Assembly: GCA_035629395.1 (NCBI GenBank)
Contig: DASPHZ010000056.1
Location: forward strand, 116,461-148,460
From: Thermoanaerobaculia bacterium
Lineage (GTDB): Bacteria > Acidobacteriota > Thermoanaerobaculia > Gp7-AA8
Length of the DNA stretch: 32,000 nt
Reading direction: 5' to 3'
Below the pieces are notes generated by a model. It was not told where the DNA came from. It worked only from the letters and a program-made list of their open reading frames with translations, and made no database searches. Numbering within the stretch: position 1 is the stretch's first letter; each line of letters starts with the position of its first letter. Shown here one piece after another: positions 1,592 through 22,553 of the stretch. The translations under genes and the position numbers were made by a program.

Positions 1592-1733
1592 ACGGTCCTC
1601 CGAGATCTGACGTTTCGCGGCGGCTCCATTGCCACCGACATTCCGTGCAGATGGAAAGACCGCCACGATGTTCCGATGGACCAACGGAAAAAAACTCCGT
1701 AAAACGGAAGACGTAATACCTGATGGTGGAACG

Positions 1734-4700
1734 ATGCTCCGTGCCCAACTGCTGTTCCTCGCCCTCCTCACCGTTTCCGATCCTCCTCCGCTCCGCGAAC
1801 GCGCCGAAGCCTTCGTCACCGCGATGAACGCCGGCGACGTCGCGCGCGTCACGAGCATGTGGCATTCGCAGTCGACGACGGGACGCCACCGCATCTCCCG
1901 TCTCGGGCTCGACGGCGTGCAACTGAGCATCAGCGCGGTGCGTGACGATGCCGCGATCCTCGAGGTGCGCGATGCCACGCAGACGCTCGTCGCCGAATAC
2001 GAGCTGCGCTTCCAGCAGGAGAACGGCGAATGGCGTATCTGGTCGCTGCTCTCGACCTCCGCCGCGCAGGCCGACGATCCGCGGAACGCGACACCCACGC
2101 TCCCGCTCGTACGCGAGCTGCTCTATCGCGCCGCCGAGGCGCACGAGGAAGGGCGGAACGACCGCGCGGAGGCGGATTACACGATTGCCGGTGCGTACGC
2201 GGAGCAGCTCGGCCACACGCTCTTCCGCACCACCGCCGAGCGCGGTCTCGGCAACATCAGCCTCGGGCGCGGCGACACGGAACGCGCGGCGCGGCACTTC
2301 GAGAAAAGCCTCGAGCTCGCGCGCGCCGCGAACGATCGCAACAGCATCGCCCGCTCGCTCAACGCACTGGCGAACGTCGACGAGACCGTCGGCAACTGGG
2401 CGAACGCGGAAACGCGGCTGCGCGAGGCCTACGAGATTTTCCGCGAGATGGGCAAGAAAACGCTCGCCGGCTACATGCTCAACTCGATCGGCAACGCCTA
2501 CGCCGCGCGCAGCGACTACAAGGAAGCGCAGCGTCACTACGAACAGGCACTGCAGCTCTTCGAGGAAATCGGCGATCTCCGCGGCACCTCCGCCGCCCTC
2601 AACAACCTCGGCATCAACCATCGCGTGCAGGGCAGCCTGCGCGAGTCCGTCGCGCTGTTTCACCGCGCCATCGAGATCAACCGCACGATCGGCACGCAGG
2701 CCCTCAGCGGCATGGCCACGTCCTGGAGCAACCTCGGACAGTCGCTCACGCTGCAGGGCAACTACGTCGCGGCGCTGCAGGCGTTTCAGGAAGCGCTGAT
2801 CCTCAACGAGAAGCTCGGCCGCGCCGACACGATCAGGGCCACGCTCGACAAAGCCGGCGACATGCATCGCCGCCTCGGCGATCTGGAACAGGCGCGCACG
2901 TTCTTCGAGCGCTCCCTCGTCATCGCCGAAAAAGCGGAGGCGAAACCGGGCATCGCGTCGTCGATGCAGAGCCTCGCCAACGTGCGGCTCGATTCCGGCG
3001 ACGCGCGCGGCGCGCTGACGCTGTACGAGAAGGCGCTCGCCATCGACACGGAGACGGGCAACCGGGCCGCGGTCGCGCGCGGCCTCGAAAGCATCGGACG
3101 CGCACAGTTGCAACTGCGCAATCGCGAGGCGGCGCGCAAAGCGTTCGAGCGGAGTTTCACGATCGCCGAGGAGATCAACGACCGGGAACTGATGGCGAGC
3201 TCGCTCGTGCGCCGGGCGTCGATCACGGAGGCATTCGAAGCCGTGACGCTCGCCGAGCGCGCCGTGGCGATCGCGAGCGAGCTCGGCTTGCCGGAGGTGG
3301 AGTGGCAGGCGCATCTCGGACTGGGCCGCGCGTACCGCGGCGCGCGGCGGACCAGCGAGGCGCGCGAGGAAGTCGAGCGCGCGGTGCAGATCGTCGAGGA
3401 GTTGCGGCGCGGCGTGCCGGGCGAGGAGATGACGCGGCAGCAGGCGTTCGAGAACATGATCGCGCCGTATCACGAGCTGGTGTCGCTGCTCATCGCCCAG
3501 GGTGAGAACGCGGCGGCGCTCGAATACGCGGAACGCGCCAAGGCGCGCGTGCTGCTGGATGTGCTGCGCTACGGACGTCCGGATGTGGGCAATGCGCTCA
3601 CGCCGGAAGAGCGGCAGCGCGAGGCGGCGCTGACGGCGCAGCTCGCGGACGTGAATCGCGAGTACCGGCGCGCGCTCGTGGCGGGAACGCAGAACGCCGC
3701 CTTGTCGGCAAAGCTGCGGCGCGCGCGGCTCGAGCTCGATCGCTTCGTCACGAATCTGCATGCCGCGCATCCACAGTTGCGCATCGAGAGCGGCGAGGTC
3801 GAGCCGATCACGGCCGCGCAGTTGCGCGCGATGAAGGAGGCGGACGCGTTCGTCGAATTCGTCGTCACCGACGACGCGACGTATCGCTTCACGATCGCGG
3901 GAGGTGTCGTGCAGGTGGCGACGATTCCGATCCCGAAGGCGAAGCTGCAGAGCGAGGTACTGCATTTTCGCGAGCTGCTCGCCGACCGCGATCTCACGTA
4001 CGCGGCGGCAGGACGCTCACTCTACGACCGCCTCTTCGGCAGCATGAACGTCAGCGGGACGCTGTGCATCGTGCCGGACGGACCGCTGTGGGAGTTGCCG
4101 TTCCAGGCGCTGCAGCCGTCGGCGACGGAGTTCCTGATCGACCGGCATGCGGTGTTCCTCGCACCGTCGCTGACCGTATTGCGCGAGATGTCCGCGGCGC
4201 CGCGAACCGATGCGGCCACGCGCCTGCTCGCGTTCGGTTTCCCGAATGCGCTCGCGCCGCTGCCGCAGTCGGAGACGGAGGTGCGCAGCATCGCCGCGCT
4301 TTACGGCGCAAGGAACAGCCGCGTGTATCTGCGCTCCGAGGCGCGGGAGGAAGTGGTGAAGGCGGAGGCGGGCGCGTTCGACGTCTTGCATTTCGCCACG
4401 CACGGCGTGCTCGACGATCGCAATGCGCTCTACTCGCGTCTCGTCTTCTCGCCGCCCGCGGCCAAGCAGGAGGATGGTCTGCTCGAAGCGCGCGAGATCA
4501 TGCGCCTCCAGTTGCGTGCGCGGCTGGCCGTGCTGTCCGCGTGCGAGACGGCGCGCGGACGCGTCGGCGATGGAGAAGGACTGATCGGCATGTCGTGGGC
4601 GCTGTTCGTCGCGGGCGCGCCGGCGAGCGTGGTCAGTCAGTGGAAGGTGGATTCGACGAGCACGACGGATCTGATGATCGAATTTCATCGCAATCTGCGC

Positions 4701-4808
4701 ATCGAGGGACGCACGAATGCGGAGGCGCTACGCCGCGCCGCGTTGAAGGTGCGCGCGAACCACAAGCATCCGTTCTACTGGGCCCCGTTCGTCGTCATCG
4801 GGCGGTAG
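1734..4808 (+). CDS. TPR-repeat protein with C-terminal CHAT (caspase-like) peptidase domain; N-terminal hydrophobic leader and NTF2-like region
   Basis: About 15 TPR-like 40-aa repeats (for example A..L..LG.....G....A...YE.AL.I). The C-terminus carries the CHAT dyad motifs LHFATHGVLD (His codon 4401-4403) and LSACETARG (Cys codon 4542-4544), and ends HPFYWAPFVVIGR. The ATG at 1734 follows GGTGGA, and the codons upstream of it have low GC3. Confidence 0.92.
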   Translation: MLRAQLLFLALLTVSDPPPLRERAEAFVTAMNAGDVARVTSMWHSQSTTGRHRISRLGLDGVQLSISAVRDDAAILEVRDATQTLVAEYELRFQQENGEWRIWSLLSTSAAQADDPRNATPTLPLVRELLYRAAEAHEEGRNDRAEADYTIAGAYAEQLGHTLFRTTAERGLGNISLGRGDTERAARHFEKSLELARAANDRNSIARSLNALANVDETVGNWANAETRLREAYEIFREMGKKTLAGYMLNSIGNAYAARSDYKEAQRHYEQALQLFEEIGDLRGTSAALNNLGINHRVQGSLRESVALFHRAIEINRTIGTQALSGMATSWSNLGQSLTLQGNYVAALQAFQEALILNEKLGRADTIRATLDKAGDMHRRLGDLEQARTFFERSLVIAEKAEAKPGIASSMQSLANVRLDSGDARGALTLYEKALAIDTETGNRAAVARGLESIGRAQLQLRNREAARKAFERSFTIAEEINDRELMASSLVRRASITEAFEAVTLAERAVAIASELGLPEVEWQAHLGLGRAYRGARRTSEAREEVERAVQIVEELRRGVPGEEMTRQQAFENMIAPYHELVSLLIAQGENAAALEYAERAKARVLLDVLRYGRPDVGNALTPEERQREAALTAQLADVNREYRRALVAGTQNAALSAKLRRARLELDRFVTNLHAAHPQLRIESGEVEPITAAQLRAMKEADAFVEFVVTDDATYRFTIAGGVVQVATIPIPKAKLQSEVLHFRELLADRDLTYAAAGRSLYDRLFGSMNVSGTLCIVPDGPLWELPFQALQPSATEFLIDRHAVFLAPSLTVLREMSAAPRTDAATRLLAFGFPNALAPLPQSETEVRSIAALYGARNSRVYLRSEAREEVVKAEAGAFDVLHFATHGVLDDRNALYSRLVFSPPAAKQEDGLLEAREIMRLQLRARLAVLSACETARGRVGDGEGLIGMSWALFVAGAPASVVSQWKVDSTSTTDLMIEFHRNLRIEGRTNAEALRRAALKVRANHKHPFYWAPFVVIGR

Positions 4809-7020: not shown

Positions 7021-8958
7021 ATGCAGCAGTTTCGATACGACATCCGCAACGTTGCCATCATCGCCCACGTCGACCACGGGAAGACCACGCTCGTCGACGC
7101 ACTCCTCAAGCAGGCCGGCGCCGTCCGTGCGAACCAGCACATGGACGAGCGGGTCATGGACTCGAACGACCTCGAGAAGGAGCGCGGGATCACGATCCTG
7201 GCCAAAAACACGTCCATTCGCTACCTCGTCGATCAGCCCGACGCCCTCGGGCATCCGGTCCATCACGAGCCCACGCACACCGCCAGCGGCCACGATCTGC
7301 CGGCCGAGTTCATCCATCCGGCCGAGGTGAAGATCAACATCGTCGACACGCCGGGCCACGCCGATTTCGGCGGTGAGGTCGAGCGCGTCCTGTCGATGGT
7401 CGACGGCGTCATCCTCCTCGTCGACGCCGCCGAAGGTCCGATGCCGCAGACGCGTTTCGTCCTGCGCAAAGCCCTCGGGCTCGGCCTCCTGCCGATCGTC
7501 GTGATCAACAAGATCGACCGGCCCGACCAGCGTGCGACGGAAGTCGTCAACGAAGTCTTCGATCTGATGATCGAGCTCGGCGCGTCGGACGAGCAGATCG
7601 ACTTCCCGATCCTCTACGCCATCGGCCGCAAAGGCATCGTGCGGCACGAGCTGACCGACACCACCGAGGATTGCCGTCCGCTGTTCGACGCGATCCTCAA
7701 GCGCATTCCGCCGCCCCCGGGCGTGCAGGATTCGCCGCTGCAGCTCCTCGTCAGCGCCATCGACTACAACGAATACGTCGGCCGCCTCGGCGTCGGCCGC
7801 ATCCAGCGCGGCAAGATCCGCCAGAACACGGACGTCGTCCTCATCCTCCGCGACGGCACGCAGAAGAAAGGACGCGTCACGAAGCTGTGGGCGTTCGAAG
7901 GACTCAAGCGTGCGGAGATCGAAGAAGCGGGAGCGGGTGAGATCGTCTGCGTCGCAGGCTTCGCGGACGTCGAGATCGGCGAGACCTTTGCCGCCGCCGA
8001 CGCGCCGGAGCGCCTCGAGCCGATCGCGATCGACGAGCCGACCGTCTCGATGTACTGGATGGTCAACGACTCGCCGTTCGCCGGCACCGAGGGCAAGTAC
8101 GTCACCTCACGCAACATCAAAGACCGTCTCGACAAAGAGCTGCGCAAAGACGTTGCGCTGCGCGTGCGTGAGACCGGTCAGGCCGACCGCTTCGAAGTGG
8201 CGGGACGCGGCGAGCTGCATCTCTCGATCCTCGCGGAGAACATGCGCCGCGAGGGCTACGAGTTCGCCCTGTCGCGCCCGCAGGTCATCCTCAAACAGGT
8301 CGACGGGCAGACGATGGAGCCGTACGAGGCCCTCGTCGTCGACGTCGAGGAAGCGCACGTCGGCACGATCATGGAGAAGATCCAGCAGCGCCGCGGCGAG
8401 ATGACCGACATGGTCAACCCCGGCACCGGACGCGTGCGCATCGAGTTCAAGATCCCCACCCGCGGCCTGTTCGGCATCCGCACGGAGTTCCTCTCCGAAA
8501 CGCGCGGCACGGGACTGCTGTACCACACGTTCCTCGAGTACGGTCCGTATCGCGGCGAGCTCGCCTCGCGCAATCGCGGTGCGCTCGTGGCGAAGGAAGC
8601 CGGCGACACGACCGCGTACGCGATCGAGCCGCTGCAGGAGCGCTCGACGCTCTTCATCGGCCCGGGCCTCAAGGTCTACGGCGGACAGGTCGTCGGCGAG
8701 AACTCGCGCGACGTCGACATGGTCGTCCAGGTCTGCCGCGCCAAGCACCTCACCAACATGCGCGCGTCGGGCTCGGACATGGCCGTCAAGCTCACTCCCC
8801 CGCGCCTCATGACGCTCGAGCAGTGCCTCGAATGGATCGAGGACGACGAGCTCGTGGAAGTGACGCCGGAATCGATCCGCATCCGCAAGCAGCTCCTCGA
8901 CCATTCGCAGCGCGAAGTCGCGGCGAAGAAGGCGAAGAAGGCGGCCGCGGAAGGCTGA
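7021..8958 (+). CDS. typA: translational GTPase TypA/BipA
   Basis: Near-identical G-domain motifs to BipA: [56 protein letters not shown]. The characteristic C-terminal domain is also present ([12 protein letters not shown]...[18 protein letters not shown]). Confidence 0.97.
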
Positions 8959-9013: not shown

Positions 9014-9277
9014 ATGCACGTGGCGGTGGCGGCACACGTTCGGACGACGGCGGACGGCGACGGAGCGGTGCTGCTCGATCTCGAGCGCGGCGTGTATCTG
9101 TCGCTGAATCGCTCCGGTGCCGCCATCTGGAGCGAGCTGACGGCCGGCGCTGCGCCGGCGGACGTTGCCGCTCGGATCGCGGCGCGCTGCTCGAAACCGG
9201 TGGCCGAGGTCGAGCGCGACGTGCGCTCCTTCGTGGACGAGCTCGCGCGCCGCGGCCTCGTCCGCGTCAGCGGGTGA
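9014..9277 (+). CDS. PqqD-like RiPP recognition element (lasso peptide B1 protein)
   Basis: An 87-aa protein with the PqqD-family pattern (GAVLLDLERGVYLSLNRSGAAIWSEL ... VERDVRSFVDELARRGLV). It sits immediately upstream of the B2 and cyclase genes. Confidence 0.85.
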   Translation: MHVAVAAHVRTTADGDGAVLLDLERGVYLSLNRSGAAIWSELTAGAAPADVAARIAARCSKPVAEVERDVRSFVDELARRGLVRVSG

Positions 9278-9281
9278 TCGC

Positions 9282-9656
9282 ATGCGCACACTCCTGCTCC
9301 TCCTGGCGTGGCTCGCGTTTCTCGTGACCTCGCTCGCGGTGCGATTCGCCGGATTCACGCGTGTGCATCGGCGCGTGCGCCAATGGCGTGTTTCGCGATC
9401 GCGTCGACGGCCGTCGATCGAGATGCTGCGCGATGCGATCGAAGCGGCCGCACGATGGACGCTGCTTCCCGTGCAATGTCTGGAGCGCGCGGCCGTGACG
9501 ACGTGCCTCTTCCGCACGTTCGGCTACGACGCGGCTTTCGTCATCGGCGTGCGGCGTACGCCTTTCTATGCACACGCGTGGACGGAGCTCGACGGTGCGG
9601 TACTGACCGACCCCGCCGAGCGCGTGCGCGAGCTCGCCGTCGTGGAGCGTTGCTGA
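9282..9656 (+). CDS. lasso peptide B2 leader peptidase (transglutaminase-like Cys protease)
   Basis: The N-terminus has a TM-like segment. Cys/His/Asp triad context typical of lasso B2 proteins is present: QCLERAAVTTCLFRTFGYDAAFVIGV ... FYAHAWTELDGAVLTD. The ATG at 9282 lies 5 nt after the B1 stop. Confidence 0.85.
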   Translation: MRTLLLLLAWLAFLVTSLAVRFAGFTRVHRRVRQWRVSRSRRRPSIEMLRDAIEAAARWTLLPVQCLERAAVTTCLFRTFGYDAAFVIGVRRTPFYAHAWTELDGAVLTDPAERVRELAVVERC

Positions 9657-9657
9657 C

Positions 9658-11484
9658 GTGAGCGTCGTCGCGGGCGTGCTTGCGTTCGACGGCGCTCCCG
9701 TGGCCGAGGAACAGCACGCGCTGCAGGCGTATGCGCGGCGCTACGGCGCGGTGTCGATCGTGAGCGGCAGCGGCGTCACGCTGTTTGCGAACGACACGTT
9801 CGTCACGCGTGACGACGCGGGGCGCGTGCGTACCGCTGTCGCGATCGACGGCCGCGTCGACGTTCTCCAGGCTTACGAACGCAATCCGCACGACTTTGCG
9901 GGCCGGCTCATCGGCGACTTTGCCTTCGCGTTATGGGATGAACCGCAGCGCACGCTCTTCCTCGCGCGCGACGCCTTCGGCTCGCGTCCGCTGTACTGGC
10001 ACGGCGATGCGAAGCGCCTCGTGTGGGCGTCGCACCTCGCTCCCCTCCTCGGACTCGCGCGCGAGCCGCTGTCGATCGACCGCGATTCCCTCGCGGCCTT
10101 CGTCATCCGCGGCGCGATGCGCGACCGCACGCCCGTCGCCGAGATCCGCTCCGTCCGCGCGGCAGAACTGTGCGTCGTACGCGACGGCGTGATGCAGCGC
10201 TCGCGGCACTGGTCGCTCGATCCACACGCCACCGTCGACGTCCGCTCGGATGCAGAGGCGGAGGAGAAGCTGCGTGCGCTATTGAGCGAGGCGGTTCGCT
10301 CGATGACGGGCGACGGACCGGCGAGTGTGCTGCTCAGCGGAGGCGTCGACTCCTCCTCGATCGTTGCGGTCGCCGACGCGGTGCGGCCGGAACCGCCGGT
10401 GCAGACGATCTCCTGGGTTTTCGAAGCGTCGCCCACGTCGGACGAGCGGGAGTTCGTCCGCGCGGTCGAGACACATCGTGGCCGCAGGGGCGTGCACATC
10501 GGCGAGCGCGAACAGGCGCTGCTCGAATTCGATCCCGAAGATCCCGGCACCGAGATCCCGACGTCGTACGTCTGCTTCGCGCGACGCTGCGAGGCCACGC
10601 GTGCCGCCATGCGCGCGGCGGGGTCGCGCGTGCTGCTGACCGGCATCGGCGGCGATGACGTGCTGTACGGCGACTTTGGGTTCATCGGCTCGATTGCGGA
10701 TGCGCTCGCGCGCGGGCGCGTGCTGCGCGCGCTGTCGGAAGTGCGCAAGTGGGCGCCGCATGTCGGCGTGTCGCATCTGCAGTTGCTGTGGCGCTCGGGC
10801 ATCCGGCCGCTGAGCGGTGCGGCGCCGGTGTCGCTGGTCGCGCCGTGGTGGTCGCGGGAGTTTGTCGAACGGATGCACGACGGCCGAGGATGGCCGTCTC
10901 GACCGCTGCCGAGCCGCCGGTTCGACCTGCAATGCTTCGAGGGACTCGTCGGCTCGATGGCGCGGCGCTGGTATTTCGAGCACGACGAGATCGTGACGCG
11001 CGAGCCGTTTCTCTACCGGCCGCTCGTCGAGTACTGCTTCGCGTTGCCGTTCGAGCAGAAGCTGCGTCCCGGCGCGACGCGCTCGATCCTCCGCCGCGCA
11101 TTACGCGATCTCCTGCCGCCGGCCATCCTGACACGCCTCTCCAAGTGCGGGCCGGACGAAGCGCTGTTGCGTGCCGCGCAAAGACGCGCGGGTGCGCTGC
11201 GCGCGCTGTTCGCCGAGGCGCGAGTGGTGCGTCACGGCTTCGCCGACGGCACGGCCATCGACGCCGCGCTGACGAAGATCGCGCACGGCTTCGACGCCGG
11301 TGTCGCCTTTCTCCTCCGCCTCATCGCCCTCGAGCTCTGGTTGCGCTGGTTCGAGCGCCGCCCTCTCTCATCCACCGCCGCAGTCACTGAAGTCAACGGA
11401 GGAATTGCATGCACGAGCACGAAATCCAGAATGACGAGTACGAAGTCCCGACCATCCTCGAGCTCGGCGACGCCGCCGACCTGA
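9658..11484 (+). CDS. asparagine-synthetase-like lasso peptide cyclase (C protein)
   Basis: The PP-loop motif LLSGGVDSSSIV is present, the overall layout is AsnB-like, and the N-terminal Cys nucleophile is absent (starts MSVVAG). The GTG start is 2 nt after the B2 stop. The last ~40 codons are S/T/P-rich and overlap the precursor gene out of frame. Confidence 0.9.
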   Translation: MSVVAGVLAFDGAPVAEEQHALQAYARRYGAVSIVSGSGVTLFANDTFVTRDDAGRVRTAVAIDGRVDVLQAYERNPHDFAGRLIGDFAFALWDEPQRTLFLARDAFGSRPLYWHGDAKRLVWASHLAPLLGLAREPLSIDRDSLAAFVIRGAMRDRTPVAEIRSVRAAELCVVRDGVMQRSRHWSLDPHATVDVRSDAEAEEKLRALLSEAVRSMTGDGPASVLLSGGVDSSSIVAVADAVRPEPPVQTISWVFEASPTSDEREFVRAVETHRGRRGVHIGEREQALLEFDPEDPGTEIPTSYVCFARRCEATRAAMRAAGSRVLLTGIGGDDVLYGDFGFIGSIADALARGRVLRALSEVRKWAPHVGVSHLQLLWRSGIRPLSGAAPVSLVAPWWSREFVERMHDGRGWPSRPLPSRRFDLQCFEGLVGSMARRWYFEHDEIVTREPFLYRPLVEYCFALPFEQKLRPGATRSILRRALRDLLPPAILTRLSKCGPDEALLRAAQRRAGALRALFAEARVVRHGFADGTAIDAALTKIAHGFDAGVAFLLRLIALELWLRWFERRPLSSTAAVTEVNGGIACTSTKSRMTSTKSRPSSSSATPPT

Positions 11485-11543
11485 CCCTCGGACGTCCGAT
11501 GGGCGGCCAGGCCGACGCGGCCGACGAGTTCCGCATCCTGTAG
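11409..11543 (+). CDS. lasso peptide precursor (44 aa), not in the supplied ORF track
   Basis: Hand translation: MHEHEIQNDEYEVPTILELGDAADLTL|GRPMGGQADAADEFRIL*. GGAGG at 11398-11402 lies 6 nt before the ATG. The leader matches the lasso motif Y-x2-P-x-(L/I)-x3-G-x5-T-x. The core starts with Gly and has Asp at position 9. Confidence 0.8.
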   Translation: MHEHEIQNDEYEVPTILELGDAADLTLGRPMGGQADAADEFRIL

Positions 11544-11566
11544 CACGCACGCGCGGGCGGCGCGGC

Positions 11567-11604
11567 GAGGCCGCCGGACGGCGAGTCCGGCGGCCTCGTT
11601 TTTT
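11567..11604 (+). terminator. rho-independent terminator after the lasso precursor
   Basis: A perfect 13-bp stem, GAGGCCGCCGGAC / GTCCGGCGGCCTC, has a 5-nt loop and is followed by GTTTTTT. Confidence 0.8.
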
Positions 11605-11620
11605 GCAGGGAGCGTCGGGC

Positions 11621-12298
11621 ATGGAACAAGCCGCACGCTGTCCGCTTCGCGTTCTCGTCTTCGCCGCCTCCCTGCGCCACGATTCGCTGAACGCGAAGCT
11701 CGCGGCGCTCGTCGAAGGGATCGTGACGCGGCACGGGGCGGAGGTCGTGCACGGGTCGATGCGCGACTTCGACTGCCCGTCGTACGACGGCGACGTCGAG
11801 ACAGGCGCCGGCATCCCCGCGGGCGCGCAGAAATTGCGCGACGCGCTCCATGGCTGCGACGCGTTCGTCATCGCCTCGCCGGAGTACAACGCGTCGATGC
11901 CGGGCATCCTCAAGAACGTCGTCGACTGGACGTCGCGCTTCCGTCCGCAGCCGTTCAACGGCAAGCAGGGGTTCCTCCTGTCCGCCTCTCCGTCGATGGC
12001 TGGCGGCAACCGCGGCCTCTGGTCGCTGCGCATCCCCCTCGAGCACCTCGGCGCCCGCGTCTATCCCGACATGTTCTCCCTCCCGCAGGCGCACGAGGCC
12101 TTCCGCGAAGATGGCCACCTCACCCGCGAATCGACGGAGAAGCGCCTCGAAACGATCGTCTCCTGCTTCCTCGACATCACCGAGGCGAGCAAACACTACG
12201 GCCGGATGAAGAAACAGTGGTTCGAGTTCCTCGGCGAGCACCCGAACGAGGCCACGGACCGCGTCGAGGCGACGGAGGTCACGGCTTCGCCGGCTTGA
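11621..12298 (+). CDS. NAD(P)H-dependent FMN reductase family protein
   Basis: Flavodoxin-like FMN_red pattern: RVLVFAASLRHDSLNAKLA ... DAFVIASPEYNASMPGILKNVVDWTS ... GKQGFLLSASPSMAGG. I prefer the ATG at 11621; the TTG at 11603 lies inside the terminator. Confidence 0.85.
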   Translation: MEQAARCPLRVLVFAASLRHDSLNAKLAALVEGIVTRHGAEVVHGSMRDFDCPSYDGDVETGAGIPAGAQKLRDALHGCDAFVIASPEYNASMPGILKNVVDWTSRFRPQPFNGKQGFLLSASPSMAGGNRGLWSLRIPLEHLGARVYPDMFSLPQAHEAFREDGHLTRESTEKRLETIVSCFLDITEASKHYGRMKKQWFEFLGEHPNEATDRVEATEVTASPA

Positions 12299-14837
12299 AC
12301 TCCGGTCGAATGTCGGCCGCTTCCACGAGGATGTAGCCGGCCAGCGCGAGGATTTGCGGGATGGCACGGACCATTGCGCGATCGACGTCTTTCCACTGCG
12401 TCGGGAGCTTCGACCACGGCACCAGATACGGACTGTGTTTGGGACTGTCCGTCGCCTCATCTCCTTTGACGTACCCAGCGGCCTTCTTGCGATTCATCCA
12501 GATGTCGTGCTCCATCTTCGCGAGCTGCTCGTACTCCGCGTCGGTCAGTTTCCGCTCTTCCGCACTTCCAGCGGGAGCGATCGTGTACCCGGCATTTTCG
12601 AGCTTCCGCGGAATCCAGCGGACGGTTCCGCGATTCGCTTCTTTCGCGTGCTCGGGGAGCTTCTCGTACTCGACGAGGAGGTTGTGACGCCTCTTCCCGT
12701 CGTTGCGAACTTCCGCGTAATGCCAACCCTGTTTCGTCTTCGTCTCGCAAAACACGTCATGAGCGTATTTCGCCTGTTTTTCGAGCACCTCGATGTCGTC
12801 TGTGAACCGCGGCACGTGCGTCTCGCTGACAAAAGGCAGTTCGACGTGCAGAGCCATTTGCGGCTCCGGCGGCAGACTGGAGCTCTCGAAACGTTTCCGT
12901 CCAGCCAGCATGCTCATGGCGATGACGGACTCGAGGGATCGTGCCCCGTGCAGATACGTTTTGGTGGTCAGGAATGCCCGCAGGACGCCGGGTGCAATCC
13001 GCAGAGTTTCGTCTTTTCGGAAAAGATCTTTGCAATGCCGCAGGAGCATCGAGCGCAGCAGAATGGCGCGGCGAATGAGGTAATGCGGATCGCCGTTCGG
13101 ATTGCGCCTGTTCGGCCCGATGACGTTCAGGAATCCTTTGAGCCGGCTGACGAAGTCCGGGACCTTCAGCGCTTTCCGCTCCTCGGTGGAACCGGGCTGC
13201 ATGAAATCTTCGATGGAAGCCGCGGTTCCTCCTGCAAAGACGAAGATGCTCGTGCCGATCGGATGGGTGACCTGGTCTTCCTGAAACTCACCGTCCTGCA
13301 TGGGACCGATGAAGTAGCGAAGCCACCCAAGCGGTTTCCCTTCGTGCGTCGTATCGAACTCGTCCCAGAACACGAGTGGGATTTCTCCCTTCAGTGACAC
13401 GTCACGCACCTGATGAAACGCACCGTGCAGATCTTCATAGCGGGCGAATTGCGTGAGGTTGAACGTCAACCGCTTGATTTTTTTCTGTCCGCCGATCGAC
13501 TTTGCGATCTCTACGACCCCAAACGACTTGCCTGATCCGGGCGAGCCGAACACCGCAATCGACAGCGGCTTGCTCGGGGTGCGATCGACGTACTCCGACA
13601 ACAGTGCTTTGACACTGCGGTACGCCTCGATCTCCTCTCGGTCGACCGTAAACAGGTCGCCGATGCGCAACTGCGGAACCTCGGCCAGAGTCTGGTCGGG
13701 ACCGTAAATCGCGACTCGCGCCGCGAGCTCGTAGAGCGGATCGTCGGATTTCCCGTCCGGAGCACTCCTCGCCGCCGTGCTGAGACGGTCTTCGAGGATG
13801 CTCCAGCTCTTGCGGCTCGGATCGTGGACGACGGCAGTGGAAACGCTCTCCTTCCTTTTCAACACGGCCTGCGTAATCGCGGGAAGTGGCATCTCCGGAT
13901 TCGCTTTGTCTTTTCCGAAGCCGCTTTCGAACAGCGCACGCATTCCCGCGATCGCGCGCGGCAGAGCGTCCGCCAGTTGCGGCCAGGTGGGATGGAGCAT
14001 CACTTCGTGAGTGACCGCCGCGGCGGCGATGGTCGCGTAGCCGATCATGTGTCCCGACGGCTTCTTCGGCGGCGCCCACTCACGCTCCATCAGTGAGGGA
14101 TCAAACACCAGGCGCGGTGGCTCATCGTCGCGTGGCAGCACCATCGCACCCGCGGGGCCGAACGAAACGATGAGGTACTTACAGCGCCGCAATGCGTGCA
14201 GCGACGTGCTTTTTCTGATCTCCGTGACGACGTCCTGCGCCGTCCGCTCCCACGACACCCGCCGAATCAACTGAATCTCTTTCCGGCGCAGATCGTCAGC
14301 CGTCATCACGACGATCAATCGATCCGCGTGCTTTGCCGCGAGGTGCTGCCACAGTTTTTCGTGAAATGCCGGTACCGACGTCTTGAGGATCACCCACGGC
14401 GTGTGTTTGCCGTTGCGAATCGCGGCAGGCCAGAACTTTTCCTTCATCTCGAAGCCGAGGTCCGAGTCGAGCAGCGCCACGACCGCGGCCTCGGGATCGT
14501 CGTGAGAAATGTCGTGCGGAGGCGTGCCCTTGCTGCGTTCGACGCCGAGAAACTCGTGGACTCGCAGGACGTCATCCGTCGCGGACGTGACGACGGTATA
14601 CGTCTGATGAACAGAGGCATCACTGGCAGGACGAACGATCCCGCGAACGATTGCGTCAGGAGCGAGCTGTCGGATCAGATCTTCGAGCAGCCATGCGCCG
14701 CCGTACTGCCGAACGCGATGCACGTCTCCTGCGTCCGCCCATGACCGCGTCGCCACGATCTTGTCGCGATCGACCGAGAGGTTCCAGTCGATCATCACGT
14801 CCCCGGCCACGACCACGGTGTTTGCTGAGCTCATCAC
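12279..14837 (-). CDS. three-part protein: ribokinase/pfkB-like N-terminal domain, AAA+ ATPase, two C-terminal RyR domains
   Basis: - N-terminus: VVVAGDVMIDW, YGGAWLL, LIVSFGPAGAMV resemble pfkB-fold strands (weak, by eye).
- AAA+: Walker A FGSPGSGKS (13524-13547), Walker B LVFWDEFD, sensor-1-like FVFAGGT.
- C-terminus: two RyR-like repeats (AKYAHDVFCETKTKQGWHY...LVEYEKLPEHAKEANR and AKMEHDIWMNRKKAAGYV...PYLVPWSKLPTQWKDVDR), about 12324-12791.
- Start is either GTG 14837 or ATG 14834. Confidence 0.85.
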   Translation of the reverse strand: MMSSANTVVVAGDVMIDWNLSVDRDKIVATRSWADAGDVHRVRQYGGAWLLEDLIRQLAPDAIVRGIVRPASDASVHQTYTVVTSATDDVLRVHEFLGVERSKGTPPHDISHDDPEAAVVALLDSDLGFEMKEKFWPAAIRNGKHTPWVILKTSVPAFHEKLWQHLAAKHADRLIVVMTADDLRRKEIQLIRRVSWERTAQDVVTEIRKSTSLHALRRCKYLIVSFGPAGAMVLPRDDEPPRLVFDPSLMEREWAPPKKPSGHMIGYATIAAAAVTHEVMLHPTWPQLADALPRAIAGMRALFESGFGKDKANPEMPLPAITQAVLKRKESVSTAVVHDPSRKSWSILEDRLSTAARSAPDGKSDDPLYELAARVAIYGPDQTLAEVPQLRIGDLFTVDREEIEAYRSVKALLSEYVDRTPSKPLSIAVFGSPGSGKSFGVVEIAKSIGGQKKIKRLTFNLTQFARYEDLHGAFHQVRDVSLKGEIPLVFWDEFDTTHEGKPLGWLRYFIGPMQDGEFQEDQVTHPIGTSIFVFAGGTAASIEDFMQPGSTEERKALKVPDFVSRLKGFLNVIGPNRRNPNGDPHYLIRRAILLRSMLLRHCKDLFRKDETLRIAPGVLRAFLTTKTYLHGARSLESVIAMSMLAGRKRFESSSLPPEPQMALHVELPFVSETHVPRFTDDIEVLEKQAKYAHDVFCETKTKQGWHYAEVRNDGKRRHNLLVEYEKLPEHAKEANRGTVRWIPRKLENAGYTIAPAGSAEERKLTDAEYEQLAKMEHDIWMNRKKAAGYVKGDEATDSPKHSPYLVPWSKLPTQWKDVDRAMVRAIPQILALAGYILVEAADIRPEFKPAKP

Positions 14838-14882
14838 AAGTGGAGTGACGGGGACGTTCTTTTTCCTACCCGCGCCGCCGCG

Positions 14883-17447
14883 TCACGGCACCAGCTTCAC
14901 TCCCAATTCCCGCAGAATCGGATCGATCGGCAGGACGATGGCCGTCACTTTGTCCGAGCCCCAGAGGATGCCGACGAGGTCGTTGTTCTCGTTGAAAACG
15001 GGGGCGCCGGAGTCGCCGCCTTCGGCCTGGAAATCGGTGAGGATCTCGTCGTCGCGAACCTCCACCACATGGCCGGTGGTGATGCCGGAGCCGCGGGCGA
15101 TCATGCGCAAGGTGTCGCCGGAACGCACGGTCGCCGTCCGGCCGGAGAGGCGGCCGAAGCGCCAGAGTGAGGAGTCGATCGTGACGCCGGGGCTCAGCGC
15201 GACGAGCGCGCCGGAGCGATAGTCGTCCTTCCCCGCGCGGGCGAACGTCCCGATGACCGACCGCGCCGTGCCGCCATCGCCGGGACCGGGCTGGATGACG
15301 CGGTCGGATTTGCCGCTCACGATGAACGGCAGCGTCAGCGCGTAACGCGTCCTGCCGTCGGTCACCGCGCAACAGAGGCTGCCGGTCGCGCCGCCCGCGG
15401 AGCCGATGCTCGCGCCGAGGCGCAGGGGACGGGTCATCGAACGGAGATTCCAGCGCGTGGCGTCGAGCAGGCGCTCCGACTGCGAGGTGATGACCCGGTT
15501 GAGCACCGGCGTCATCGCGCGCTGCACGGCCTGCGTGGCCTCCACCTTCTGCTCGACGAGCTCCTTTTCGGCCGCATCCCTCGCTTCGAGAGCTGCCTGC
15601 AACTCGCTGTTGCGATGTTCGACGAGCGCCAGCGCCTGCAGCGTTTTTTCCTTCTCGGCTTTCAGCTCGGCGGCGTACTTTTGCATCGCGTCGTAATCCG
15701 CTTTGTTGACCTTGCCCAGCAGTTCCTCCGCACGCGCGGCCGCGATCTTCGCTTCGATCTCTGCTTTGTCGGCTTCCCGCTCGGCTTTGGCCTTGTCACG
15801 CTCGCTGCGCAGCTTCATCCATTGCGTGTACATCACCGCCAGCACGAGCACCGCGACGAGCGCCAGCGCGAAATGCTTCACGCGACGCTGCGAATTCACC
15901 AGCTTCCGGCTCTCCCGTACGAGCGCCTGCAGCGACTCGCTCGCGCTCAGATCACGCGCCTCTTCGCTGCTCAGCCACGCCTCCGCCTCCTCCACCTGCT
16001 CGCGATCGAGATACCCGCCGCGGCGATCGAAGCGCAGCCATTCATCGGCGAGCGCTTCCAGCCGGCGCAGCTCGACGAGCGCGCCGCGTTTGGTCTCCAG
16101 CCAGCCGACGAGCAGCGGCCAGTTGCGGATCAGCGCTTCATGCGAAACCTCGACGGTGTCCTCGTCGCCGCTCTTCCCTTTCGTACGGCGGATCAGCTTC
16201 GATTCCTCGAGCTTCCCCAAAACCTCGGCGATGCGTTGCGGATCGTCGCCGATCGATCGGACCAGCATACCGACGCGTACGCGATTGCTCGTCAGCTCCG
16301 CGCCCGCCGCCGCGCGGACCATGCGCAGCAGCACGCGGCGCATCGTGTCGCGCGATTGCGGCGTGAAACCGCGATAGACCTCGTCCGCCGAACGCTCGAG
16401 CGCCGCCAGTCCGCCGCCGAGCTTCTTGTACGCGGCGAGCGTGAGGCGATTGCGATCGCGATCCTTCCACAATCGCCACAGCGTGAACTGCAGGAGCGGC
16501 AGCGCACTCGCCTCCCCTTTCACGTCCCGGATCAGCGCGTCGGTGAGCCCCGGCTCGAGCTTCAGCTTGATATTGGCCGCCGGTTTTTCGATCGCTTCGC
16601 GCAGCTCGTCTTCGTCGAGCGCGGTCGCGGCGATGCGGCCGGCGCTGTAGACCTTCTGCAGTTCCGGAATGGTGGTGAGGCGATATTCGTAATCACTGCG
16701 GATCGTAATGACGACGCGGCAGAGCGCACCACTCGCGAGCGCCACGAGACGCCCCGCGAACGAAGAGCGCACCTGATGGTCGTCACAGAGCGTGAAGAGC
16801 TCCTCGAACTGATCGACGATCACGACCAGCGTGCGCCCGGCTCCCGCCTGCAGCAGCGCGTCGATGCCGGCCAGACTCTGCAGCGGATCGCTGCCCGGCG
16901 TGACCGGATCCGCGTAGAGCCACTGCTCGCTTCCTTCGATCGCACCGTCTTTGAGCGCGGGAATGATGCCGGCCAGCACGATCGACGACTTGCCGCTGCC
17001 GGACGATCCCGTCACGCCGACGAAATGCGACTCCCGCAGCCTTGCGAGGGCCGCGTCGACCGCGCGTTTGCGGCCGAAAAACTTCTGGCTGTCGCTTTCG
17101 CGGAATGCCGTCAGTCCGACGTACGGACAGAGATGCTCCTCGAGCTTTTCCGCGAACGAGTTGTCGAACTCCGCGAGTGTGGAATCGTTCACGCCGAGCG
17201 ACGCGCGCACGAGCGTGGTCGACCAGTAGTCGATGAGACCCTGCGCCGCATCGCGCTGCTCGTCCGCGTCGAGGTACACACCGGTCAGGCGCGCGCGGCG
17301 GATGAACAGCCGCGCCTCGTCCGCGACGTCCGTGACCGACATGGCCTTGCGCTGCCGCGTGAGCAGCGAGGTGTGCGTCGCGCGCAGCTCCACGATCGAC
17401 GGGAACGCTTCCTTCACGGTTTCCGCAGTGACAGGGGTCTCGCTCAT
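14883..17447 (-). CDS. STAND-type P-loop NTPase (nSTAND-like), then TM helix, coiled coil and C-terminal trypsin-like domain
   Basis: - NTPase: CPYVGLTAFRESDSQKFFGRKR precedes Walker A GSSGSGKS (16986-17009); Walker B is LVVIVDQFEELF.
- Winged-helix-like segments: LPLLQFTLWRLW and VSHEALIRNWPLLVGWL.
- TM helix HFALALVAVLVLAVMYTQWM (15816-15875), then a K/E/A-rich coiled coil.
- Trypsin-like domain with GDSGAP (Ser codon 15009-15011).
- The ATG at 17447 overlaps the TIR gene stop (ATGA). Confidence 0.88.
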   Translation of the reverse strand: MSETPVTAETVKEAFPSIVELRATHTSLLTRQRKAMSVTDVADEARLFIRRARLTGVYLDADEQRDAAQGLIDYWSTTLVRASLGVNDSTLAEFDNSFAEKLEEHLCPYVGLTAFRESDSQKFFGRKRAVDAALARLRESHFVGVTGSSGSGKSSIVLAGIIPALKDGAIEGSEQWLYADPVTPGSDPLQSLAGIDALLQAGAGRTLVVIVDQFEELFTLCDDHQVRSSFAGRLVALASGALCRVVITIRSDYEYRLTTIPELQKVYSAGRIAATALDEDELREAIEKPAANIKLKLEPGLTDALIRDVKGEASALPLLQFTLWRLWKDRDRNRLTLAAYKKLGGGLAALERSADEVYRGFTPQSRDTMRRVLLRMVRAAAGAELTSNRVRVGMLVRSIGDDPQRIAEVLGKLEESKLIRRTKGKSGDEDTVEVSHEALIRNWPLLVGWLETKRGALVELRRLEALADEWLRFDRRGGYLDREQVEEAEAWLSSEEARDLSASESLQALVRESRKLVNSQRRVKHFALALVAVLVLAVMYTQWMKLRSERDKAKAEREADKAEIEAKIAAARAEELLGKVNKADYDAMQKYAAELKAEKEKTLQALALVEHRNSELQAALEARDAAEKELVEQKVEATQAVQRAMTPVLNRVITSQSERLLDATRWNLRSMTRPLRLGASIGSAGGATGSLCCAVTDGRTRYALTLPFIVSGKSDRVIQPGPGDGGTARSVIGTFARAGKDDYRSGALVALSPGVTIDSSLWRFGRLSGRTATVRSGDTLRMIARGSGITTGHVVEVRDDEILTDFQAEGGDSGAPVFNENNDLVGILWGSDKVTAIVLPIDPILRELGVKLVP

Positions 17448-18868
17448 TTCAGTGCCTCGACGACCTCGGCCAGCGGCCTGCCGATCGTGCCGAGCTCCTC
17501 GCATTGCTCTTTCAGGTTCGTGTCGACGGTGAAGAACCGCGTGTTGGCTTTCTTGCGGAAGCGCACGAAGAAGCGGTTCATCTGCGCGGGATCGCCCGCG
17601 GCAATGGCTTCGTCGACGCTGCGCGCGTCGTCGCGGAGCGGCTGCACCCAGTCGCCCGGCGACGCCCACAGCACGGTCACCATCTTCAGGAGATCGCTCC
17701 AACTGATCTCCAGCTCGCTCGCGTCTTTCGCCGAGATGTTCGTCTCGATGCGCCGCATCTCCACCTCGACGTCCTGCCACAGGCGGTGACCGCGGACGAG
17801 AATGCCGAGGTTTTCTTCGAGGGCTTCCATGACATCGCGGGCGTGCTCGAGGGAGAGCACTTTCTCCGCGGCCATGCCGAGCTCACGGCCGGTGCGGCAG
17901 ACGAACGAAAGCGCGTCGATGACCGCTTCCAGCTCGAGATTGGCCGCCGCTTCGCCGAGACGGGCGTCGATGCGCGCGGGCTCGTTCGCAAGCACGCGAT
18001 TGAGGAGCCGCGCCGCGCCGCGCACCCCTTTTTCGTCGCGCGCCTTCACCGCCACCGCCAGCGCCTTCTGCGCCTCGGCCAGCGTGTCGATCCACGCCAT
18101 GCGCATGTTCTCGAACATCGGCCTTGCGTCGATCTCGCGCAGCGTGCCGATGGCCCGTTGCAGGTCGTTGGAGTAGTAGTCGATGGCGTCGACGGCAGTG
18201 TCGTCGTCCGCGATGCGCGGTGCGTCGCGGAGGATCGCCTCGTAGACGTGCAGTTGCACGTGGTGCAACTGGTCGTGCACGGACTTGAACGCATCGAGGC
18301 GGTGGATGAGGCCGACGATCGTGTTGAAGCGGAGCTCGTATTCGAGGAGTTTCTCGCGCACGTGTCCCGCGGAGATGAGCTCGGACATCGTCCGGAGCCC
18401 CTCGCCCACGGGTCTGGTGCGGACGACGTCGGGCGCGCCGAGGGGACGGGCGAGGCTGCGGACGAGCTTCGCCATCTGATCGCTGATGGTCGCGTCGTTG
18501 ACGCAATCGACGTACGTGCGCAGCGACAGCCACGGCGGGGCGTTGCATTTTTCGCGGAGGATCGGGATCAGCCGTCCGCGTGCGCCGGTGGGATCCTGCT
18601 GCACGCTGAGCATCCCTTCGAACTGCGACCACTCGCTGTCGACCCAGTTCTGCGTGAGCACGGCCACGGTGCGGCGCGACTGGAGGACGCCGTCCGTCAT
18701 GTTCGTGATCGAGCTGTTGCCGGCGGCGAAACCGTCCTCATCGACGAGCACGCGCAGGCCGCCGTCGCGCAGCGCCTTCACGAGCACGCCCGAAACCCAC
18801 GCCTTGTCTTTGTGGCTGTAGCTCACGAAGACGTCATGGGGGTACTCCGCCGGTGTCGTGGCGCTCAT
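17444..18868 (-). CDS. TIR-domain protein with ~330-aa all-helical C-terminal domain
   Basis: TIR motifs are HDVFVSYSHKDKAW, TVAVLTQNW and DSEWSQFE (putative catalytic Glu codon 18617-18619). I prefer the ATG at 18868 because the codons upstream of it (to GTG 18919 / ATG 18910) have low GC3. Confidence 0.88.
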   Translation of the reverse strand: MSATTPAEYPHDVFVSYSHKDKAWVSGVLVKALRDGGLRVLVDEDGFAAGNSSITNMTDGVLQSRRTVAVLTQNWVDSEWSQFEGMLSVQQDPTGARGRLIPILREKCNAPPWLSLRTYVDCVNDATISDQMAKLVRSLARPLGAPDVVRTRPVGEGLRTMSELISAGHVREKLLEYELRFNTIVGLIHRLDAFKSVHDQLHHVQLHVYEAILRDAPRIADDDTAVDAIDYYSNDLQRAIGTLREIDARPMFENMRMAWIDTLAEAQKALAVAVKARDEKGVRGAARLLNRVLANEPARIDARLGEAAANLELEAVIDALSFVCRTGRELGMAAEKVLSLEHARDVMEALEENLGILVRGHRLWQDVEVEMRRIETNISAKDASELEISWSDLLKMVTVLWASPGDWVQPLRDDARSVDEAIAAGDPAQMNRFFVRFRKKANTRFFTVDTNLKEQCEELGTIGRPLAEVVEALK

Positions 18869-18965
18869 GGATCCCTGGATGGACGGATTTCCATGAGTAT
18901 AGCCCACCATCCTCGGCACTCCACGTGCACGCCCCGTTTGTCACACCTTTACAGGAGGCTGAACG

Positions 18966-22472: not shown

Positions 22473-22510
22473 TGGACGGAGGAGATTGTACGTGGTTCGC
22501 GCTGCGCGCG

Positions 22511-22553
22511 CGGTTGTCGGTTGTCGGTTTTCCACCCGGCCGCATACCCGTTG
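22511..22553 (+). repeat. three tandem heptamers (CGGTTGT CGGTTGT CGGTTTT) running into copy A of the motif CGGTTTTCC-N12-ACCCGTTG
   Basis: Read directly. Copy A spans 22525-22553. Confidence 0.5.

What the first reader, a model, noticed from the sequence alone, without database searches (positions are those of the whole stretch)
11409..11543. Hidden 44-aa precursor with a textbook lasso leader motif; predicted core GRPMGGQADAADEFRIL
This ORF is absent from the supplied track because it is too short, but it has the best Shine-Dalgarno in the region (GGAGG-N6-ATG). The leader ...YEVPTILELGDAADLTL matches the conserved lasso recognition motif Y-x2-P-x-L/I-x3-G-x5-T-x, with Thr at -2. The predicted core begins at Gly (codon 11490-11492). 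The only acidic residue at core positions 7-9 is Asp9 (codon 11514-11516). This predicts a 9-residue Gly1-Asp9 macrolactam ring and an 8-residue tail, AADEFRIL. Phe14 and Arg15 are candidate steric plugs.
Basis: partly seen in the sequence, partly recalled or inferred. Interest (0 to 1): 0.7.

Follow-up and report, generated by a model that had tools for sequence, protein, structure and literature searches.

The report
Unannotated lasso peptide precursor gene
The 44-codon ORF is a real, conserved precursor gene for a lasso peptide (a small knotted peptide natural product), lying at the end of its three-gene maturation operon in an uncultured Acidobacteriota bacterium; it is a sound but ordinary new member of a very large, well-understood family.

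Summary
ORF 11409-11543(+) encodes MHEHEIQNDEYEVPTILELGDAADLTL|GRPMGGQADAADEFRIL. It has GGAGG-N6-ATG, the leader motif YxxPxI at -17..-12, Thr at -2, Gly1 and Asp9.

It scores above NCBI's curated cutoff for lasso leader peptides. It is the last gene of a tight B1 (PqqD-type recognition protein) - B2 (Cys protease) - C (Asn-synthetase-like cyclase) - A operon, which ends in a 15-bp hairpin plus U6 terminator.

Five independent metagenomic clusters, with cyclases 49-86% identical, carry the same small ORF at the same place. All have the same ribosome-binding site, and Tyr, Pro, Thr(-2), Gly1 and Asp9 are invariant. The full motif occurs once in the window and in none of 300 simulated windows.

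The Gly1-Asp9 nine-residue ring and the AADEFRIL tail are therefore well supported by comparison, but they are unproven chemically.

Nothing is mechanistically new. The B1-B2-C-A order is common in this clade. The 76-nt overlap with C is read-through of an unconserved C tail. No exporter or tailoring gene is linked.

Verdict: new member of a known kind (class II lasso peptide, Thermoanaerobaculia MAG), of low to moderate interest.

The parts
9014..9277 (+). B1: PqqD-like RiPP recognition element (87 aa) that binds the leader
   Evidence: Pfam PqqD scores 61 bits against a cutoff of 23.4. NCBIfam lasso_PqqD_Strm scores 61.1, below its exception-level cutoff of 70. The closest solved structures are the lasso leader-binding proteins TbiB1 (5v1u, E = 6e-9) and TfuB1 (6jx3). 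An 87-aa homologue sits at the same position in L003-L007.
9282..9656 (+). B2: transglutaminase-like cysteine leader peptidase (124 aa)
   Evidence: NCBIfam NF033537 lasso_biosyn_B2 scores 73.6 bits against a cutoff of 33. Pfam Transglut_core3 scores 78 bits. Cys66, His98 and Asp110 are invariant in six homologues. The ATG lies 4 nt after the B1 stop.
9658..11484 (+). C: Asn-synthetase-like, ATP-dependent lasso cyclase (608 aa). The conserved domain ends at about nt 11364 (...ELWLRWFERRP). The last 39 aa are an unconserved read-through tail.
   Evidence: Pfam Asn_synthase scores 124.6 bits, with GATase_7 also matched. The best NCBIfam hit is NF033535, lasso isopeptide-bond-forming cyclase, E = 1e-61, but at 209 bits it is below the 525-bit cutoff. 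The PP-loop SGGVDS is present. The GTG start is 1 nt after the B2 stop. The C-terminal alignment shows that homologues P0008-P0012 and P0014 end 5-6 residues after the conserved ...WLR..E.RR stretch.
11398..11402 (+). Shine-Dalgarno GGAGG, 6 nt before the precursor ATG and inside the C reading frame
   Evidence: Read directly. GGAGG precedes the small ORF in all five homologous clusters; in L007 it lies further upstream of the start than in the others.
11409..11489 (+). Leader peptide (27 aa), MHEHEIQNDEYEVPTILELGDAADLTL. YxxPxI occupies -17..-12 (nt 11439-11456) and Thr(-2) is at 11484-11486.
   Evidence: NF033521 lasso_leader_L3 covers residues 11-30 above its cutoff. Y, E, P, I, ELGD, A and LTL are invariant in six clusters. 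The motif position matches the YxxPxL at -17..-12 described in PMC10368454.
11490..11543 (+). Core peptide GRPMGGQADAADEFRIL (17 aa) plus the stop codon. Gly1 is at 11490-11492 and Asp9 at 11514-11516. The predicted ring is Gly1-Asp9 and the predicted tail is AADEFRIL.
   Evidence: Gly1 and Asp9 are invariant in six clusters. Against L005, 11 of 19 nucleotide differences fall at third codon positions of this frame, with 7 synonymous codon changes. The calculated lasso mass is 1784.8628 Da.
11565..11604 (+). Intrinsic terminator: a 15-bp GC-rich stem, a 5-nt loop and a U6 run, 22 nt after the precursor stop
   Evidence: Fold of 11541-11625: the hairpin dominates both the MFE and the centroid structures. 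Comparable hairpin-plus-U-run structures follow the precursor ORF in L003, L004 and L006, with weaker versions in L005 and L007. The simple terminator scan missed it.

Best explanation
The ORF is the precursor gene (A) of a class II lasso peptide. It is the last gene of a four-gene B1-B2-C-A operon in a Thermoanaerobaculia (Acidobacteriota) MAG.

**Proposed mechanism, by inference from the established lasso pathway:**
1. The 44-aa precursor is translated efficiently from its strong GGAGG site.
2. The PqqD-like B1 protein binds the leader through Tyr(-17), Pro(-14) and Ile(-12).
3. The B2 Cys-His-Asp protease, guided by Thr(-2), cuts between Leu(-1) and Gly1.
4. The Asn-synthetase-like cyclase C adenylates the Asp9 side-chain carboxylate. 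It then joins it to the Gly1 amine while the tail is pre-threaded.
5. The product is a 17-residue lasso with a 9-residue ring (GRPMGGQAD) and an 8-residue tail (AADEFRIL). Phe14 and Arg15 probably act as steric locks.

**What is shown:** the ORF, its ribosome-binding site, its motifs, its operon context, its conservation and its terminator.

**What is inferred:** expression, the cleavage site, the ring residue, threading and the plugs.

The biological role of the product is unknown, and no exporter, immunity or tailoring gene is linked. My guess, weakly held, is a secreted antimicrobial or signalling peptide exported by an unlinked transporter.
For: - **ORF and ribosome-binding site:** read directly.
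- **Leader model:** the NCBIfam lasso-leader model is met above its curated cutoff.
- **Maturation genes:** B1, B2 and C are identified by Pfam and NCBIfam, 1-4 nt apart.
- **B1 relatives:** the nearest solved relatives are the lasso leader-binding proteins TbiB1 and TfuB1.
- **B2 catalytic residues:** Cys, His and Asp are invariant.
- **Conservation of the ORF:** the same small ORF, with GGAGG, is present in all five homologous clusters (cyclase 86, 85, 61, 58 and 49% identical). Y, P, I, ELGD, LTL, Gly1 and Asp9 are invariant.
- **Selection on this frame:** the substitution pattern is biased to third positions of this frame.
- **Chance:** the motif is unique in the window and absent from 300 simulations.
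- **Wider family:** profile search finds about 50 short metagenomic and genomic proteins with the same leader. Several are named by NCBI as lasso RiPP leader or albusnodin-family peptides.
- **Terminator:** a conserved terminator lies directly after the ORF.
- **Size:** the 27-aa leader and 17-aa core fall within the published ranges of 20-40 and 13-33 aa (PMC13352647).
Against: - There are no expression or mass-spectrometry data, and the organism is an uncultured MAG.
- The cyclase is far below NCBIfam's lasso-cyclase cutoff (209 against 525 bits), and B1 is just below its lasso-specific cutoff (61 against 70). NCBI names the cyclase only 'asparagine synthase-related'.
- Pfam DUF5974 and the NCBIfam albusnodin model are hit only below threshold.
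- No ABC exporter, isopeptidase or immunity gene lies in the 32-kb window.
- An 8-residue tail on a 9-residue ring is short, so stable threading is not guaranteed.
Confidence: 0.85

Rival explanations
1. The precursor is real, but the product differs from the prediction. It could be an unthreaded branched-cyclic peptide, because the 8-residue tail and the Phe14/Arg15 plugs cannot hold a 9-residue ring. Or it could carry a further modification made by an unlinked enzyme.
For: The core is short (17 aa) for a 9-membered ring. Tail residues vary among relatives (RIL, RIS, KIL). Related clusters do carry tailoring genes, for example HPr-kinase-like and nucleotidyltransferase genes in L013.
Against: Phe14 and a basic residue at position 15 are conserved in all five sequences that share the GRPMGG core. 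No tailoring gene is linked in the window or in L003-L007. From memory, not tested here: capistruin (G1-D9 ring, 19 aa) is held by Arg15.
Confidence: 0.1
2. The ORF is a chance open frame in GC-rich DNA. It overlaps the 3' end of the cyclase gene and is not translated.
For: The window is GC-rich and full of long spurious ORFs in all frames. The ORF overlaps the annotated cyclase ORF by 76 nt. It appears not to be annotated in the NCBI record.
Against: It is conserved in frame, with its GGAGG, in five independent assemblies down to 49% cyclase identity. It is hit by a curated lasso-leader model above cutoff. None of 300 simulated windows has the motif. The overlapped part of C is an unconserved tail that most homologues lack, so the conservation there belongs to the precursor frame.
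Confidence: 0.02
3. The cluster is intact but cryptic or silent, so no peptide is made under natural conditions.
For: No sigma-70-like promoter was found between 8700 and 12500. No exporter is linked. According to review PMC13352647, many predicted lasso clusters could not be matured in vitro: of 42 uncharacterised precursor/RRE pairs tested in a cell-free assay, only 27 bound and only one lasso peptide could be matured in vitro.
Against: Purifying selection on all four genes across relatives implies function. The promoter scan covers only the E. coli-type consensus. The operon may also be read through from bipA, 55 nt upstream.
Confidence: 0.05

Closest known systems
Class II lasso peptides made by split-B systems (fusilassin/fuscanodin TfuA-B1-B2-C of Thermobifida fusca; the TbiA/TbiB1 system of Thermobaculum terrenum)
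   Same: All the defining genes are present: separate PqqD-type B1 and protease B2, an Asn-synthetase-like C, and a leader with YxxPxL...G.....Tx. The core has no Cys. B1 is detectably homologous to TbiB1 and TfuB1.
   Different: The gene order is B1-B2-C-A, with A last and starting inside the 3' tail of C. No ABC exporter is linked. The host is Acidobacteriota. The core sequence is unrelated.
Capistruin (Burkholderia; GTPGFQTPDARVISRFGFN). Sequence and plug data are from memory, not tested here.
   Same: It shares Gly1, Pro3, a nine-residue Gly1-Asp9 ring, Ala10 and Arg15, which is the tail-trapping residue in capistruin. Its length is similar (19 against 17 aa).
   Different: Capistruin comes from a fused-B, A-B-C-D cluster with an exporter, and it targets RNA polymerase. 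There is no evidence that this peptide shares that target. Identity outside these positions is negligible.
Albusnodin-family lasso precursors (NCBIfam NF033525 / Pfam PF19399 DUF5974)
   Same: The C-terminal half of the leader is nearly identical (ELGDAAELTLG). NCBI-named albusnodin-family peptides appear among the weak profile hits.
   Different: Both models score below their cutoffs (21.1 against 30, and 23.4 against 38.5 bits). There is no acetyltransferase gene and no Lys in the core. The core is unrelated.
BI-32169, a class III lasso peptide with a ring-to-tail disulfide (class definition from PMC13352647; sequence from memory)
   Same: This applies to the relatives only. L006 and L007 have cores GRPWFDCIDFSGQTRPCQ and GKRFFDCLDDFGMTRACP, with one Cys in the predicted ring, one near the C-terminus, and Asp9.
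   Different: The window's core has no Cys, so it is class II.

Membership tests
Lasso peptide (RiPP class) | The precursor leader carries the RRE-recognition motif YxxPxL at about -17..-12 and Thr at -2. | tested here: met
   Y11, P14 and I16 sit at -17, -14 and -12, and T26 at -2. The positions match those given in PMC10368454. NF033521 scores 24.6 bits against a cutoff of 19.
Lasso peptide (RiPP class) | The core starts with a small residue (usually Gly) and has Asp or Glu at position 7, 8 or 9. | tested here: met
   Gly1 is present, and Asp9 is the only acidic residue at positions 7-9. Both are invariant in six clusters.
Lasso peptide (RiPP class) | A PqqD-like RiPP recognition element (B1 or the N-terminal domain of B) is encoded in the cluster. 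| tested here: met
   Pfam PqqD is met above cutoff. The protein is homologous to TbiB1 and TfuB1.
Lasso peptide (RiPP class) | A transglutaminase-like Cys protease (B2/B) with a Cys-His-Asp triad is present. | tested here: met
   NF033537 scores 73.6 against a cutoff of 33. C66, H98 and D110 are invariant. That these are the catalytic residues is inferred from family knowledge.
Lasso peptide (RiPP class) | An ATP-dependent Asn-synthetase-like macrolactam cyclase (C) is present. | tested here: met
   Pfam Asn_synthase and GATase_7 are met above cutoff. The best NCBIfam hit is the lasso cyclase model (E = 1e-61), but it is below the model's strict cutoff. SGGVDS is present.
Lasso peptide (RiPP class) | An isopeptide bond joins the N-terminus to the Asp/Glu side chain, with the tail threaded through the ring. 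| not testable with these tools
   This needs MS/MS, protease and heat stability tests, and NMR.
Class II lasso peptides | No disulfide bonds (PMC13352647). | tested here: met
   The core has no Cys.
Albusnodin family (NF033525 / PF19399) | The family models are met above their curated cutoffs. | tested here: not met
   21.1 against 30 bits and 23.4 against 38.5 bits.
Albusnodin family (NF033525 / PF19399) | A cluster-encoded acetyltransferase and an acetylated Lys in the core (from memory of the albusnodin work). | tested here: not met
   The core has no Lys. No acetyltransferase was found among the window's ORFs.

The most novel reading that the evidence does not exclude
The most novel reading not excluded concerns the start of the precursor gene inside the cyclase gene. 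In five of the six clusters the overlap is 73-79 nt, and the cyclase stop codon TGA lies within the Leu(-3)-Thr(-2) codons CTG-ACC.

On this reading the arrangement is a selected translational device. Ribosomes finishing C would sweep over the precursor's GGAGG and start codon, so enzyme and substrate synthesis would be coupled or mutually tuned. The product would be the first lasso peptide from class Thermoanaerobaculia. Because it has no linked exporter, it might act on a target or in a compartment not yet seen for lasso peptides.
Probability: 0.1. Interest if true: 0.4.

Novelty: new member of a known kind. Interest (0 to 1): 0.28.

Why it matters
The finding adds a correctly delimited precursor to a cluster whose precursor appears not to be annotated in the NCBI record. 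It also adds a predicted 17-residue, nine-membered-ring lasso peptide (1784.863 Da). NCBI names the cyclase only as 'asparagine synthase-related'.

It defines a small subfamily of six clusters, plus P0122, in uncultured Acidobacteriota. My literature searches found no paper linking lasso peptides with class Thermoanaerobaculia.

The practical value is for natural-product mining and for fixing annotation of short genes. It does not change understanding of lasso biosynthesis.

The more unusual chemistry seen in relatives (two-Cys and very Cys-rich cores) may be the better lead.

Tried and rejected
**Searches that gave little**
- A word-indexed search with the single peptide found only itself.
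- An exhaustive phmmer search of 1.84 billion representatives gave only three hits at E <= 0.001, one of them the peptide itself. Single-sequence searches are too weak for a 44-aa query. A profile of the six precursors worked.
- A scan of GTDB species genomes with the two most conserved leader patterns returned only three distant loci (Ilumatobacteraceae, Acidimicrobiaceae, Pseudomonadota). None had the same cluster. The subfamily is therefore absent from the species-representative genomes scanned, at least at these strict patterns.
- Literature searches for GRPMGG, for ELGDAAELT, and for 'lasso peptide' with Thermoanaerobaculia found nothing.
- The consensus terminator scan missed the obvious hairpin. 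Folding was needed to see it.
- No sigma-70-type promoter was found.
- B2 has no sequence-detectable solved structure.

**Ideas considered and rejected**
- The downstream FMN reductase (11621-12298) as a tailoring enzyme. It lies beyond the terminator, is absent next to L005-L007, and is displaced in L004.
- The gene order B1-B2-C-A as a novelty. It recurs in L011, L012 (C followed by three precursors) and L013.
- The overlap as evidence of a frameshift or assembly error. It recurs in five independent assemblies.
- Membership of the albusnodin family. Both models score below cutoff and there is no acetyltransferase.
Full report
**1. The observation**

Window 11409-11543(+) translates to MHEHEIQNDEYEVPTILELGDAADLTLGRPMGGQADAADEFRIL. 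GGAGG lies at 11398-11402, six bases before the ATG.

Reading the starts of the neighbouring genes shows this is the only full GGAGG in the operon:
- B1 has no recognisable site.
- B2 has only GGGTG.
- C has GGAG at a 10-nt spacing.
- The downstream FMN-reductase gene has GGGAG.

Tyr11, Pro14 and Ile16 fall at -17, -14 and -12 relative to the proposed cleavage site. Those are the positions reported for the YxxPxL motif (PMC10368454). Thr26 is at -2.

**2. Is it more than chance?**

The window is GC-rich and carries long open frames on all six frames, so an open 44-codon frame means nothing by itself. Three further results do.
- The full pattern (Y..P.[LIVM]...G.....T.[GASC] followed by Asp or Glu at core position 7-9) occurs exactly once in the six-frame translation of the window. 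It occurs in none of 300 second-order Markov simulations.
- NCBIfam NF033521, 'lasso RiPP family leader peptide-containing protein', matches residues 11-30 at 24.6 bits, above its curated cutoff of 19.
- Pfam DUF5974 and the NCBIfam albusnodin model are hit only below threshold. In the protein collection, proteins carrying DUF5974 are named albusnodin-family lasso peptides by NCBI.

**3. Context**

Four genes lie head to tail immediately upstream and around the ORF.
- **B1, 9014-9277.** An 87-aa PqqD-family protein (Pfam 61 bits). Its nearest solved relatives are the lasso leader-binding proteins TbiB1 and TfuB1.
- **B2, 9282-9656.** A 124-aa protein matching lasso_biosyn_B2 (NF033537, 73.6 bits against a cutoff of 33), with invariant Cys66, His98 and Asp110.
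- **C, 9658-11484.** A 608-aa Asn-synthetase-like protein with the SGGVDS PP-loop. Its best NCBIfam match is the lasso isopeptide-bond-forming cyclase model (E = 1e-61), though far below that model's strict cutoff.
- **A, 11409-11543.** The precursor.

Gaps between B1, B2 and C are 4 nt and 1 nt. Twenty-two bases after the precursor stop lies a 15-bp GC-rich hairpin followed by U6, at 11565-11604. The precursor is therefore the last gene of the transcription unit.

An identical cyclase sequence in the NCBI collection is named 'MAG TPA: asparagine synthase-related protein [Thermoanaerobaculia bacterium]' and lies on a 179-kb contig. That points to an uncultured member of Acidobacteriota as the source.

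The identical peptide is on record only from JGI and ENA gene calls on two short contigs.

**4. Comparative test**

I fetched the contigs encoding the five closest cyclases, which are 86, 85, 61, 58 and 49% identical.

All five have B1-B2-C in the same arrangement. All five have a 43-48-codon ORF preceded by GGAGG that begins inside the 3' end of C.

The alignment shows these residues invariant: M1, Y, E, P, I, E-L-G-D, A, L-T-L, Gly1 and Asp9. A seventh sequence, P0122, comes from another metagenome and has core GRPMGGAADAADEFRIL.

Core residues behave as follows:
- Asp12 is Ala in L005, so it is dispensable.
- Glu13 is kept in all five sequences with the GRPMGG core, but it lies outside any known ring size.
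- Phe14 and Arg/Lys15 are kept in those same five sequences.

At the nucleotide level, the comparison with L005 has 11 of 19 differences at third positions of the precursor frame, and 7 synonymous against 6 non-synonymous codon changes.

Hairpin-plus-U-run structures follow the ORF in the other loci too.

A profile of the six precursors retrieves about 50 short proteins with the same leader and very diverse cores. Some of them are named lasso RiPP leader peptides by NCBI.

**5. The overlap with C**

The precursor starts 76 nt before the C stop. The C stop codon TGA (11482-11484) sits inside the leader codons CTG-ACC, which encode Leu(-3) and Thr(-2).

Alignment of cyclase C-termini shows that conservation ends at ...ELWLRWFERRP, at about nt 11364. 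Six of the more distant homologues (P0008-P0012 and P0014) stop 5-6 residues after that point. L007's cyclase overlaps its precursor by only 17 nt.

The last 25 residues of the window's C (...TKSRPSSSSATPPT) are simply the leader read in another frame. I therefore read the overlap as read-through of an unconserved tail in GC-rich DNA, not as a functional C domain. A role in translational tuning cannot be excluded, but nothing requires it.

**6. What is not there**

No ABC exporter, isopeptidase, kinase, acetyltransferase or other lasso-associated tailoring gene lies in the 32-kb window.

The FMN reductase just downstream (11621-12298) is beyond the terminator. It is not linked in L005-L007 and is displaced in L004. 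I do not count it as part of the cluster.

The order B1-B2-C-A is not unusual in this part of the cyclase tree. It recurs in L011 (Thermoanaerobaculia, with an ABC transporter), in L012 (Pyrinomonadaceae, where C is followed by three tandem precursors) and in L013 (Armatimonadota, with kinase and nucleotidyltransferase genes).

**7. Mechanism**

This follows the established lasso pathway, summarised in PMC13352647.
1. B1 binds the leader.
2. B2 removes the leader after Leu(-1).
3. C adenylates Asp9 and closes the Gly1-Asp9 isopeptide around the pre-threaded tail.

The leader (27 aa) and core (17 aa) fall within the published ranges of 20-40 and 13-33 aa. With no Cys, the product would be class II (class definitions). 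The predicted mass is 1784.8628 Da.

The identities of the genes are shown. The cleavage site and ring residue are strongly inferred from invariance. Threading and the plug residues are plausible inferences. From memory only, capistruin shares G1, P3, D9, A10 and R15, and its R15 traps the tail.

**8. Novelty and verdict**

Literature searches found no report of this core, of its leader string, or of lasso peptides in Thermoanaerobaculia. Papers that mention Acidobacteria lasso clusters concern other features.

Even so, the ORF is recognised by a curated NCBI model, the enzymology is canonical, and thousands of such precursors have been predicted. This is a new member of a known kind. Interest is low to moderate.

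Noticed in passing
L011:5874-6008 (Thermoanaerobaculia GCA_054337595.1); also proteins P0125, P0126, P0129, P0132, P0139: Related clusters encode precursors with the same leader but extremely Cys-rich predicted cores. One example is GGCGCCCDCECGYRCCCGGEELQQV, with 9 Cys, followed by an ABC transporter. Others carry CDC/CNC/CEC motifs and 4-6 Cys. That is well beyond the 4 Cys of class I lasso peptides. It could mean multi-disulfide or metal-binding lasso peptides. One literature search turned up nothing directly relevant.
   Followed up: partly
L006:7782-7922 and L007:7808-7954: The two more distant members of the subfamily have cores GRPWFDCIDFSGQTRPCQ and GKRFFDCLDDFGMTRACP. Each has one Cys in the predicted Gly1-Asp9 ring and one near the C-terminus. 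That suggests class III (ring-to-tail disulfide) lasso peptides, a class with very few known members. L006 resembles BI-32169 at G1, P3, W4, D9 and G12 (BI-32169 sequence from memory).
   Followed up: partly
window 12279-18919, minus strand: Next to the lasso operon lies a trio that looks like a defence or signalling island:
- a P-loop protein with two RyR domains (12279-14837);
- an nSTAND1 NTPase with a C-terminal trypsin-like domain (14883 to about 17423);
- a TIR-domain protein (17444-18919), with weak PADLOC hits to PDC-S66, bSEFIR and ThsB.

The same three gene types lie beside the lasso cluster in L004.
   Followed up: partly
window 7021-8958 (+): The TypA/BipA GTPase gene directly upstream of B1 (55-nt gap) appears to carry an insertion of about 35 aa in its G domain. 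The inserted stretch is roughly ...[47 protein letters not shown]... In the Pfam GTP_EFTU match, 223 residues align to 185 profile positions.
   Followed up: no
window 11482-11484: The cyclase stop codon TGA is formed across the leader's Leu(-3)/Thr(-2) codons (cTGAcc). The conserved-looking C-terminal 'KSRPSSSSATPP' of the cyclases is the leader read out of frame. Annotated cyclase lengths in this subfamily are therefore inflated by about 39 residues.
   Followed up: yes
L012:3412-4159 (Pyrinomonadaceae GCA_035273105.1): Three tandem 42-43-aa ORFs (MYEVAEVLEAGKAQDVIKAEPKE...DENGQ...) follow two Asn-synthase-like genes. They lack the YxxP/Thr(-2) lasso leader, so they may be precursors of a different cyclase-dependent peptide type.
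   Followed up: no
window 1629-4808 (+) and 19866-22535 (-): A large TPR-CHAT protein and a Ser/Thr kinase fused to PD40/TolB-like beta-propeller repeats flank the region. This is typical Acidobacteriota signalling content and is unrelated to the finding.
   Followed up: no
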